Assembly: GCF_009914755.1 (NCBI RefSeq)
Contig: NC_060941.1
Source of the DNA: the human T2T-CHM13v2.0 reference genome, Homo sapiens
Length of the DNA: 64,000 bases
Direction: 5' to 3' (one strand)
Both the position numbers and the translations under genes were made by a program. The notes beneath the pieces were generated by a model that did no database searches, was not told the DNA's origin, and worked only from the letters and a program-made list of their open reading frames with translations. Of this stretch, positions 49,953 through 51,441 are shown in pieces. Numbering within the stretch: the first letter of the stretch is position 1; each line of letters opens with the position of its first letter.

Positions 49953-51100
49953 AGGAGATGATGAGAAAGAAAACACAGGGCCACCAACATGGGAGGAGTG
50001 AGAAGTGGGGCCGATTTCACGGCAGAACAAGCCGTGAGATGGGAGGGAGAGGACAGAGACAACGGAGGGGCCAGGGAGACAGCCGTCAGCATGAGAAGCA
50101 CTGCAGCTGCTCTCAGGGACGGCAGGTGAGCAGGGCCCGAAGGGATAGAGCTGACCCTCGCGCCACCCACAGATGCCTCTGTCGTCAGCTGGGAACGCAG
50201 AGCCCTGATGAACTGCAGAAATGTTTTAAATGAAAGTCTTCCAAGCATCAAAATATTGAAGCTGTTGTTGTCTCACTGTGGGTTAGTTGCTATGGAGAAA
50301 TTCAGCCCCAGCAGCCACTCTAATTAGACGCCCATGGGAGACAGGCCCCAAATGGGCTGGTTTAGGGCTGGCCTCAGGGAAGGGGTTCCCCGCCCAGAGC
50401 CAAGAATGGGGGACAGCTCCCCACCTCCCAGCCACATGTCCTAAAAATCACCCAAACTGAGTCTTCTCCACTGTTGGAGGCATAGAGCTGGTAGGGAAAC
50501 TGAGGCCCAGAGAAAGTGAAAGCCCCGCCAAGGTCACAGAACTAGTCGATGGCATGGCTGAGACCACATCCCAAGTGTCCCGCTCTGGGTATTGACGTCT
50601 TCCCAGCACGTAGTCTGTTTCTCTTCCAAGACCCCGTTTGCCAAGCATTTCAAAGCCAGCTCCGTCTCAGGAGTAAGTCAACACCCTAAATATGGTGACT
50701 TCCCAGAGTGGGGCCACGCAGGCCAAGCAAGAGCCAGGGACTGTCCTGGGCTGTGGAGCAGGACCCTGGTGCTTCTCCCCAACTCCTCTGCAGCCCAGCA
50801 GAGCATGGCTAGGGAGGGTCTTCTCTGCTCAATTCCAGACCGATTCTACCTTCCCATGCCTGTACACCTGCCTGGGTACTCGTGCCTCTGAGCCTTCAAG
50901 GCTGATCTCTGCCTGAAATGTCCACCCCTTTGGATGCCCCTTTCTTTCAATCCCAACGTCAACAATGCTCCTTCCTATGTCTCATGGGTTGGCCGGGAAG
51001 AGATGCAGAGGTCATTTCCCCACCCTCCTTGTCCCTCACCTGAACACTGGCAACAGTCTTTCTAACACTCTGGCACTCCCTGCATCTATGAGGCTCATTT

Positions 51101-51441
51101 ATTTTTTCTTTCTTTTTTTTTTTTTTTTTTCTGAGACAGAGTATCGCTCTGTCTGCAGTGCCATCTCGGCTCACTGCAACCTCTGCCTCCTGGGTTCAAG
51201 CGATTCTCCCGCCTCAGCTTCCCCAGTAGCTGGGATTACAGGCACCCGCCACCACACCCGGCTAATGTTTTGTATTTTTAGTAGAGATGGGGTTTCACAG
51301 GACCACCTGTTAAAGGGAACACATCTGTTAAGGGAATACACATGTTGGCCAGGCTGGTCTCAAACTCCTGACCTCAGGTGATCCACCCACCTTGGCCTCC
51401 CAAAGTGCTGGGATTACAGGTGTGAGCCACCACGCCTGGCC
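51101..51441 (-). mobile_element. AluS carrying a 42-bp non-Alu insertion (51299-51340)
   Basis: ggtttcac|insert|catgttggcc. Confidence 0.95.

What the first reader, a model, noticed from the sequence alone, without database searches (positions are those of the whole stretch)
51098..51340. Exon-2 splice acceptor copied into an intron-2 Alu: candidate poison or terminal exon
Seen: a 42-bp insert in the Alu (51299-51340). Its first 33 nt are identical to 51931-51963, the exon-2 acceptor plus 8 exon bases, followed by a re-primed stutter gggaataca. In transcript sense it reads TGTGTATTCCCTTAACAGATGTGTTCCCTTTAACAG|GTGGTCCTGTGAAACCCCATCTCTACTAA. This puts a copy of a functional 3' splice site 536 nt after the exon-2 donor. 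Splicing to 51306 would give ...[19 protein letters not shown], and a minus-strand AATAAA sits at 51098-51103. Known: sense-oriented Alus rarely exonise because they lack a pyrimidine tract and AG. Inference: this insert supplies one, allowing an NMD exon or an intronic-polyadenylated ~48-aa isoform.
Basis: partly seen in the sequence, partly recalled or inferred. Interest (0 to 1): 0.8.

Follow-up and report, generated by a model that had tools for sequence, protein, structure and literature searches.

The report
Splice-acceptor copy inserted into intronic Alu
A 42-base DNA-repair scar has copied the working acceptor of PITPNM3 exon 2 into an Alu in the next intron, which completes a dormant exon on paper, but nothing yet shows that cells use it.

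Summary
Window 51299-51331 is an exact 33-nt copy of 51931-51963, which is 25 intron bases plus 8 exon bases of the PITPNM3 exon-2 acceptor. The 33-mer occurs exactly twice in the 3.1-Gb genome. With a 9-nt imperfect stutter it forms a clean 42-nt insertion in a sense-oriented AluS-like element. None of 26 other Alu copies in the window has it. It is best read as a templated insertion from error-prone break repair or a replication template switch.

I add three points. The copy carries the only branch-point-like motif of the real acceptor (TTAAC, A at -22). A strong donor-like site (CAG|GTGAGG, exon end 51040) already lay 267 nt downstream. Without the insert, no usable AG lies upstream of that donor (best 0.5 bits against 7.0-7.4 with it). 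So the insert completes a latent 267/285-nt exon with an early stop, or a 48-aa isoform ending at the AATAAA.

Against use: the copied acceptor is only mediocre (291 of 4940 AGs in the window score as well). An inverted Alu nearby could bury most of the exon in double-stranded RNA. No RNA, population or cross-species data could be consulted. Verdict: a real scar and a plausible but untested pseudo-exon.

The parts
51931..51963 (-). Template: PITPNM3 exon-2 3' splice site, 25 intron nt (51963..51939, ending AG at 51940-51939) plus the first 8 exon nt (51938..51931)
   Evidence: Exact 33-nt repeat; exon 51843-51938 from the hub annotation
51299..51331 (-). Exact 33-nt copy of the exon-2 acceptor inside the Alu. 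Copied AG at 51308-51307; a candidate exon would start at 51306
   Evidence: the -20..+3 23-mer is identical to that of the real site
51332..51340 (-). 9-nt stutter (TGTATTCCC in transcript sense). It matches TGTGTTCCC inside the template at 8 of 9 positions and has no other local template. Together with the start of the copy it makes a second AG at 51326-51325 (alternative exon start 51324)
51327..51331 (-). Branch-point-like motif TTAAC (yTnAy), A at 51328, which is -22 from the copied acceptor. The same motif at -22 is the only yTnAy within -18..-42 of the genuine acceptor
51104..51440 (-). AluS-like element, sense to PITPNM3, in intron 2, with A-rich tail. Non-CpG divergence from the in-window majority consensus is 8/239 (3.3%); CpG sites 15/40. 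It also has a deletion of about 19 nt in the right arm
51278..51280 (-). In-frame TAA, nt 27-29 of the candidate exon, 238 nt before the candidate donor junction
51098..51103 (-). AATAAA at the end of the Alu A-tail, followed by CA dinucleotides and GT-rich stretches (GTGTT, TGTTG, GTGTT) within about 60 nt
   Evidence: sequence
51034..51042 (-). Donor-like site CAG|GTGAGG in unique sequence past the Alu. Exon end 51040, intron start 51039. It defines a 267-nt exon (from 51306) or a 285-nt exon (from 51324)
   Evidence: 11.2 bits by crude PWM; one of 9 of 3476 GTs scoring 10 or more in the window
51843..51938 (-). PITPNM3 exon 2 (96 nt), which encodes ...SDSVESSDDEFFDAR including the FFAT motif. 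Its donor is GAG|GTGAGT
   Evidence: Hub annotation; FFAT role from PMC9250379 (passages)
49633..49951 (+). Inverted Alu about 1.2 kb downstream in the transcript that could pair with the insert-bearing Alu
   Evidence: orientation; cofold -457.8 against -218.9 kcal/mol for the two separately; 247 of 322 nt paired; 0 of the 42 insert nt paired between the two molecules

Best explanation
This is a templated-insertion scar. After an AluS-like element had landed in sense orientation in PITPNM3 intron 2, the Alu was broken or its replication stalled between CAACATG and GTGAAACC. An error-prone polymerase then copied a stretch lying 632 bp away on the same strand: first an imperfect short piece, then 33 nt spanning the exon-2 acceptor. 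After that the ends were rejoined. This is the pattern described for polymerase-theta end joining and for replicative template switching.

The by-product is a complete latent exon. A branch-point motif, a pyrimidine tract and an AG (two AGs, at 51326-25 and 51308-07) now sit 267/285 nt upstream of a pre-existing strong donor-like site at 51040|51039.

My best estimate is that this exon is silent or included only at a low level. Any inclusion would bring a stop after 9 (or 15) new codons, and the transcript would be removed by NMD. The AATAAA inside the exon is probably held down by U1 binding at the nearby donor.

Shown: the copy, its uniqueness, its direction (Alu interrupted, exon contiguous), the motifs and the reading frames. 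Inferred: the repair pathway, and the low level of use.
For: Origin:
- The 33-mer is exact and occurs only twice in the genome.
- The insert interrupts an otherwise collinear Alu: 26 of 26 other in-window Alus lack it, and the majority consensus has a 42-column gap there.
- Of the 50 whole-genome matches listed, only the locus itself and the exon-2 acceptor cover the insert core.
- The second stretch is an 8/9 match to the same template and has no other local source. By hand, the chance of such a match within the 33-nt template is about 0.003.
- Published POLQ templated insertions are 2-35 bp, copied from adjacent or kb-distant sequence, and often start at microhomology (PMC7454005, passages).

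Low use:
- The copied acceptor scores 6.96 bits, the 94th percentile; 291 of 4940 AGs score as well or better.
- Only 8 exon nt were copied.
- Sense Alus make up 139 of 1060 (13%) Alu exons (PMC2394776, Table 3 passage).
- Predicted pairing with an inverted Alu would bury 247 of 322 Alu nt in duplex.
- The selected RefSeq transcript has no exon here (hub table).
Against: Against silence:
- The insert raises the best acceptor within 50-300 nt upstream of the strong donor from 0.5 to 7.0-7.4 bits.
- The branch-point motif was copied too.
- Six donor-defined exon candidates pass my crude filter in the window. Two are real exons, and one is this locus. So the combination is not background noise.
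- The pseudo-acceptor is transcribed about 12 kb before the true exon-3 acceptor.
- In the predicted Alu-Alu duplex the insert is bulged out, hence possibly accessible.

Against a clean POLQ reading:
- Junction microhomology is weak or ambiguous, 0-3 nt, read by eye.
- The total insert (42 nt) slightly exceeds the 2-35 bp range quoted.

My PWM matrices are recalled approximations, not MaxEntScan or SpliceAI.
Confidence: 0.65

Rival explanations
1. It is a working poison exon. The copied acceptor (51306 or 51324) and the donor at 51040 are used in a measurable share of transcripts. That inserts 267 or 285 nt with an early TAA, sends the mRNA to NMD, and so lowers PITPNM3 (Nir1) output in carriers of the insert.
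For: Complete core signals are present: a branch-point motif at -22, a 23-mer identical to a constitutive acceptor, and a donor of 11.2 bits, among 9 of 3476 GTs scoring 10 or more. The acceptor exists only because of the insert. The stop lies 238 nt before the junction, which meets the rule of more than 50 nt (rule as stated in the abstract of PMC13187750, listing). The site lies 536 nt after the exon-2 donor, about 12 kb ahead of the real exon-3 acceptor.
Against: No RNA evidence could be consulted. The acceptor is mediocre (291 of 4940 AGs score as well or better). The exon contains a long A-run and an AATAAA. Predicted dsRNA with the inverted Alu covers most of it. There is no exon here in the selected RefSeq transcript; the other 4 RefSeq transcripts were not seen.
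Confidence: 0.2
2. It is an alternative terminal exon. Splicing to the copied acceptor is followed by cleavage after the Alu-tail AATAAA. This yields a stable short mRNA for a 48-aa peptide, MAKAGRAG...[19 protein letters not shown], which keeps the acidic tract and six of the seven FFAT core residues and might bind VAP.
For: AATAAA at 51103-51098 with CA sites and GT-rich downstream sequence. Sense Alu tails are a documented source of PAS hexamers (PMC2553571, passages). An Alu-edge intronic PAS gave the human TAF8s short isoform (PMC12871804, abstract). The 48-aa product was verified. The FFAT motif is needed for Nir1-VAP targeting (PMC9250379, passages).
Against: A strong U1-type site lies about 58 nt past the hexamer and would be expected to suppress it (telescripting; abstracts only). 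There are 23 AATAAA on the transcript strand of this window alone. The seventh FFAT core residue would change: E in the normal exon-3 junction, read by eye, and G here. No 3'-end data were available.
Confidence: 0.07
3. It is a recursive-splice-type site. The copied junction reads AG|GT, so splicing to it regenerates a 5' splice site and the intron is removed in two steps, leaving no trace in the mRNA.
For: AG|GTGGTC juxtaposition at 51307|51306.
Against: The regenerated donor is weak (4.7 bits against 11.2 for the downstream donor). The same AG|GT is simply inherited from the exon-2 start. Intron 2 is only about 12.5 kb.
Confidence: 0.02
4. It is an assembly artefact or an allele private to this assembly's haplotype, not a general feature of the human gene.
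For: Only one haploid assembly could be examined. Scans of other collections for the junction found nothing, though these collections are not expected to hold human DNA.
Against: The junctions are clean, the flanking Alu is collinear, and the structure (exact copy plus stutter) is what biology produces rather than a mis-join. Whether it is polymorphic remains open.
Confidence: 0.05

Closest known systems
[quoted passage not shown]
   Same: A short stretch is copied from nearby sequence on the same chromosome in direct orientation. A second, imperfect stretch comes from the same template. The length is near the published 2-35 bp range and the template lies sub-kb away (PMC7454005 passages).
   Different: Junction microhomology is weak or ambiguous here. 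Pathway dependence cannot be tested from sequence. The copied piece happens to be a whole 3' splice-site module.
Alu exonization
   Same: An intronic Alu provides most of a candidate exon, and a small sequence change creates the missing splice site.
   Different: Classical Alu exons are 87% antisense and use the poly-T as the pyrimidine tract (PMC2394776). Here the Alu is sense. The acceptor is imported from the host gene's own exon by an insertion, and the donor lies outside the Alu. Inclusion is unproven.
Pathogenic or latent pseudoexons and terminal pseudoexons (catalogue and definitions in PMC8819188)
   Same: A deep-intronic acceptor-donor pair is completed by a mutation. The terminal variant needs a novel acceptor plus a poly(A) site (passages).
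   Different: That catalogue is dominated by SNVs. In the passages I saw, the internal-mutation class had 28 SNVs, three 2-4 nt deletions and one 113-nt insertion among 32 cases. No case of a copied canonical acceptor appeared in those passages. Its definition also excludes sequence that duplicates a canonical exon, and this candidate duplicates 8 nt.
Alu-derived intronic polyadenylation isoforms (e.g. human TAF8s, PMC12871804)
   Same: A poly(A) signal at the edge of a sense Alu-family element inside an intron could give a truncated protein.
   Different: TAF8s is shown to be expressed and translated (abstract). Here nothing is shown beyond the hexamer and its downstream context.

Membership tests
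Templated insertion (TMEJ / template switch scar) | Inserted bases identical to a nearby sequence that can serve as template | tested here: met
   33/33 identity to a site 632 bp away on the same strand; only 2 copies in the genome
Templated insertion (TMEJ / template switch scar) | The insert interrupts otherwise continuous sequence (derived state) | tested here: met
   26 of 26 other in-window Alus lack it; the consensus has a clean 42-column gap
Templated insertion (TMEJ / template switch scar) | Iterative or imperfect re-copying of the same template | tested here: met
   The 9-nt stretch is an 8/9 match to the template interior, with no other local source
Templated insertion (TMEJ / template switch scar) | Microhomology at initiation and resolution junctions | tested here: inconclusive
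   0-3 nt depending on the parse (ATG at one junction, none at the other); read by eye
Templated insertion (TMEJ / template switch scar) | Dependence on POLQ or on replication stress | not testable with these tools
   Needs genetics or experimental break repair
Exonized Alu / pseudoexon | Acceptor and donor motifs at exon-like spacing | tested here: met
   3'ss 7.0/7.4 bits, 5'ss 11.2 bits, 267/285 nt apart; crude PWM with recalled matrices
Exonized Alu / pseudoexon | Spliced into a measurable share of mature transcripts | not testable with these tools
   No RNA data available
Exonized Alu / pseudoexon | Typical architecture: antisense Alu with poly-T as pyrimidine tract | tested here: not met
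   The Alu is sense to the gene; the tract comes from the insert
Poison (NMD) exon | In-frame stop more than 50 nt upstream of a downstream exon junction | tested here: met
   The TAA ends at exon nt 29, 238 nt before the candidate donor
Poison (NMD) exon | Inclusion isoform stabilised when NMD is blocked | not testable with these tools
   Needs RNA-seq with UPF1/SMG1 inhibition
Terminal pseudoexon / intronic polyadenylation isoform | Novel acceptor, no overlap with canonical exons, functional poly(A) site (criteria in PMC8819188) | tested here: inconclusive
   Acceptor motif and AATAAA with GT-rich downstream sequence are present. Function was not tested, and a nearby U1-type site argues against it
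Recursive splice site | AG|GT junction that regenerates a competitive 5' splice site | tested here: not met
   The regenerated site scores 4.7 bits against 11.2 for the downstream donor

The most novel reading that the evidence does not exclude
A DNA-repair templated insertion moved a complete, working 3' splice-site module (branch point, pyrimidine tract, AG) from PITPNM3 exon 2 to a spot in front of a dormant strong donor. In one step this created a primate- or human-specific exon. That exon either tunes Nir1 dosage through NMD or, through the Alu-tail poly(A) signal, makes a 48-aa FFAT-only peptide that could compete for VAP at ER-plasma-membrane contacts. It would be a route to exon birth distinct from point-mutation exonization of antisense Alus.
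Probability: 0.12. Interest if true: 0.65.

Novelty: new member of a known kind. Interest (0 to 1): 0.35.

Why it matters
New exons are usually thought to arise by point mutations in antisense Alus. A templated insertion that copies a gene's own acceptor into the next intron would be another one-step route, and a class of intronic indel that variant interpretation pipelines should flag.

PITPNM3 is listed among cone-rod dystrophy genes (CORD5 appears in the abbreviation list of PMC9250379). An allele-specific poison exon right after the FFAT-coding exon could therefore matter for expression of the gene.

If the exon is not used, the locus is still a clean natural example of a templated-insertion scar. 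It would also be a useful negative control for splice predictors, because its core acceptor is identical to a constitutive one but sits in a different context.

Tried and rejected
- My first translation of the candidate exon was out of frame, which was my slip. It was redone correctly from the window file.
- I scanned genome contigs and viral contigs for the copy/Alu junction in case a stray human or primate contig carried it: 0 hits each. This is uninformative, since those collections are microbial and viral.
- Dating the insertion by identity does not discriminate. There are 0/33 mismatches against 3.3% non-CpG divergence of the Alu, so P(0 mismatches) is about 0.33 by hand even if the insert is as old as the Alu.
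- I looked for another template for the 9-nt stretch within +/-1.8 kb at up to 2 mismatches and found none.
- I looked by eye for target-site duplications to fix the Alu ends and found no convincing pair.
- Literature, PITPNM3 + Alu: 27 papers hold both terms. Going by their titles and abstract starts, none of the 15 listed concerns this locus (listing only).
- Literature, PITPNM3 with cryptic exon, poison exon, intronic polyadenylation or pseudoexon: none of the 12 papers listed holds PITPNM3. That ranking cannot prove absence, so I claim only that I found nothing.
- The reverse direction (exon acceptor copied from the Alu) is rejected, because the copy interrupts the Alu while the template is continuous with the coding exon.
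- An RNA-templated origin was considered. The copy crosses the intron-exon boundary, so only unspliced pre-mRNA could have served, and the priming end shows no microhomology. It is neither supported nor excluded.

Full report
**Observation.** The repeat finder reports a 33-nt direct repeat at 100% identity, 51299-51331 = 51931-51963. A script confirmed identity, showed that the match does not extend by a single base on either side, and found no further copy in the window. The 33-mer occurs exactly twice in the window's own 3.1-Gb genome, and the reversed control pattern occurs 0 times. The upstream copy is the annotated exon-2 acceptor of PITPNM3: 25 intron bases ending in AG, plus the first 8 exon bases.

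**What the copy sits in.** The surrounding 51104-51440 is an Alu that reads sense on the gene strand.
- BLAST of this Alu against the window gave 32 HSPs. 27 span the insert site, one of them being the Alu itself.
- All 26 others lack the insert. 21 show a clean 42-column gap. In 5 the aligner placed 2-19 unrelated bases opposite it.
- In a MAFFT alignment with 23 other in-window Alus, the majority consensus has a 42-column gap exactly between CAACATG and GTGAAACC.
- Apart from the insert, the element differs from that consensus at 8 of 239 non-CpG and 15 of 40 CpG positions. It also carries a right-arm deletion of about 19 nt.
- A 101-nt query across the insert was run against the whole genome. 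Of the 50 matches listed, only the locus itself and the exon-2 acceptor cover the insert core. Other Alus match the two flanks, and those flanks abut in them.

The Alu is therefore the recipient and the exon acceptor the donor of the sequence.

**How it arose.** The insert is 9 nt plus 33 nt.
- The 9-mer has no other template within about 1.8 kb at up to 2 mismatches.
- It matches a stretch inside the copied template at 8 of 9 positions. By hand, that has a chance of about 0.003 within the 33-nt template.
- The template contains TTAACAG twice, 18 nt apart, which offers a slip point.
- Junction microhomology is weak: ATG at one junction under one parse, none at the other (by eye).

This is the anatomy of a templated insertion. 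Passages of PMC7454005 describe POLQ-dependent templated insertions of 2-35 bp, copied from adjacent or kb-distant sequence and often initiated at microhomology. A replicative template switch would look the same. The pathway is inferred, not shown. The age is open: zero mismatches in 33 nt is expected with P of about 0.33 even if the insert is as old as the Alu (by hand).

**Splicing anatomy.**
- The 23-mer from -20 to +3 is identical at the copy and at the real acceptor, so any context-free scorer gives both the same value.
- The only yTnAy motif within -18..-42 of the real acceptor is TTAAC with its A at -22. It lies inside the copied 33 nt, so the copy has it at -22 too, at window 51328.
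- The stutter plus the start of the copy creates a second AG (exon start 51324). It scores 7.4 bits but has no yTnAy in range.
- Downstream, in unique sequence past the Alu tail, lies CAG|GTGAGG (exon end 51040). It scores 11.2 bits and is one of only 9 of 3476 GTs on the transcript strand scoring 10 or more.
- It defines a 267-nt or 285-nt exon.
- With the 42 nt removed in silico, the best AG within 50-300 nt upstream of that donor scores 0.5 bits.

So the insertion turned a donor without an acceptor into a complete exon candidate. These scores use frequency matrices that I recalled, and they are only a rough ranking.

**Consequences if it is used.**
- Exon 2 is 96 nt and encodes ...SDSVESSDDEFFDAR.
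- Joining it to 51306 gives [13 protein letters not shown]. Joining it to 51324 gives [19 protein letters not shown].
- The TAA ends at exon nt 29, 238 nt before the candidate junction. An internal exon would therefore mark the mRNA for NMD.
- Exon 1, fetched from the genome, contributes 22 coding nt.
- It would retain the acidic tract and EFFDAR. Passages of PMC9250379 show that the FFAT motif is required for VAP-dependent localisation of Nir1 at ER-PM junctions.
- The next residue would be G rather than the E supplied by exon 3 (by eye).
- AATAAA is at 51103-51098 and is the only canonical hexamer in 50900-51306. CA sites and GT-rich sequence follow it.
- Sense Alu tails are a documented source of such hexamers (PMC2553571 passages). 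An Alu-edge intronic site produces the human TAF8s isoform (PMC12871804 abstract).
- The donor-like site about 58 nt past the hexamer would be expected to recruit U1 and suppress cleavage (telescripting; abstracts only). I therefore rank the NMD exon above the terminal exon.

**Reasons for caution.**
- The real exon-2 acceptor is itself unremarkable: 6.96 bits, 94th percentile, with 291 of 4940 AGs in the window scoring as well or better. Exon 2 probably relies on its excellent donor (11.3 bits) and on exon sequence, of which only 8 nt were copied.
- My crude exon filter (acceptor at least as good as exon 2's, donor 10 or more, 50-300 nt apart) returns six donor-defined candidates in 64 kb. 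They are exon 2, exon 3, this locus, and three others with no exon in the selected transcript. It misses exon 4, whose donor scores 5.1.
- Sense Alus account for 139 of 1060 catalogued Alu exons (PMC2394776).
- An inverted Alu 1.2 kb downstream could pair with 247 of the 322 Alu nucleotides. The cofold energy is -457.8 against -218.9 kcal/mol for the two folded apart. The insert is left unpaired between the two molecules. This could hide most of the exon, or instead present the acceptor on a bulge.
- I could not see the other four RefSeq transcripts, any RNA data, population variation or other primates.

**Verdict.** The structure is a real templated-insertion scar that, on paper, completes a pseudo-exon. 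Whether it is spliced is open. I put about 65% on silent or trace use, about 20% on an appreciable NMD exon, and about 7% on a polyadenylated short isoform. It is a new example of known kinds (templated insertion, latent pseudoexon) with an unusual twist: a gene's own acceptor was transplanted. I found no description of it in the searches, of which I saw the listings only.

Noticed in passing
window 51466-51503: A 19-nt tandem duplication (second copy 89% identical) lies in unique sequence just upstream, in transcript sense, of the Alu 5' end. It is a second small duplication event within 130 nt of the templated insertion (family D3).
   Followed up: no
window about 51140-51165 (Alu right arm): The insert-bearing Alu lacks about 19 nt of the right arm relative to the in-window majority consensus, so the element carries a deletion as well as the insertion.
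   Followed up: partly
window 42505-42646, 16114-16242, 8969-9241 (minus strand): Three other acceptor/donor pairs pass the same crude filter (3'ss at least as good as exon 2's, 5'ss 10 bits or more, 50-300 nt apart) but are not exons of the selected transcript. They may be alternative exons of the other RefSeq models or plain pseudo-exons.
   Followed up: no
window 49633-49951 (+) with 51120-51441 (-): This inverted Alu pair, about 1.2 kb apart in intron 2, is predicted to form a long duplex (247 of 322 nt paired) with the 42-nt insert left out of the intermolecular pairing. It is a possible ADAR substrate and splicing modifier.
   Followed up: partly
window 51843-51865 and 39322-39324: The FFAT core of Nir1 is encoded at the very end of exon 2, and its seventh residue spans the exon 2/3 junction. 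Any alternative acceptor choice after exon 2 therefore changes that residue.
   Followed up: partly
window 51548 (minus strand): An unrelated AG with a 7.5-bit acceptor score lies 294 nt into intron 2. It is too far (508 nt) from the 51040 donor to pair with it under my 300-nt limit.
   Followed up: no
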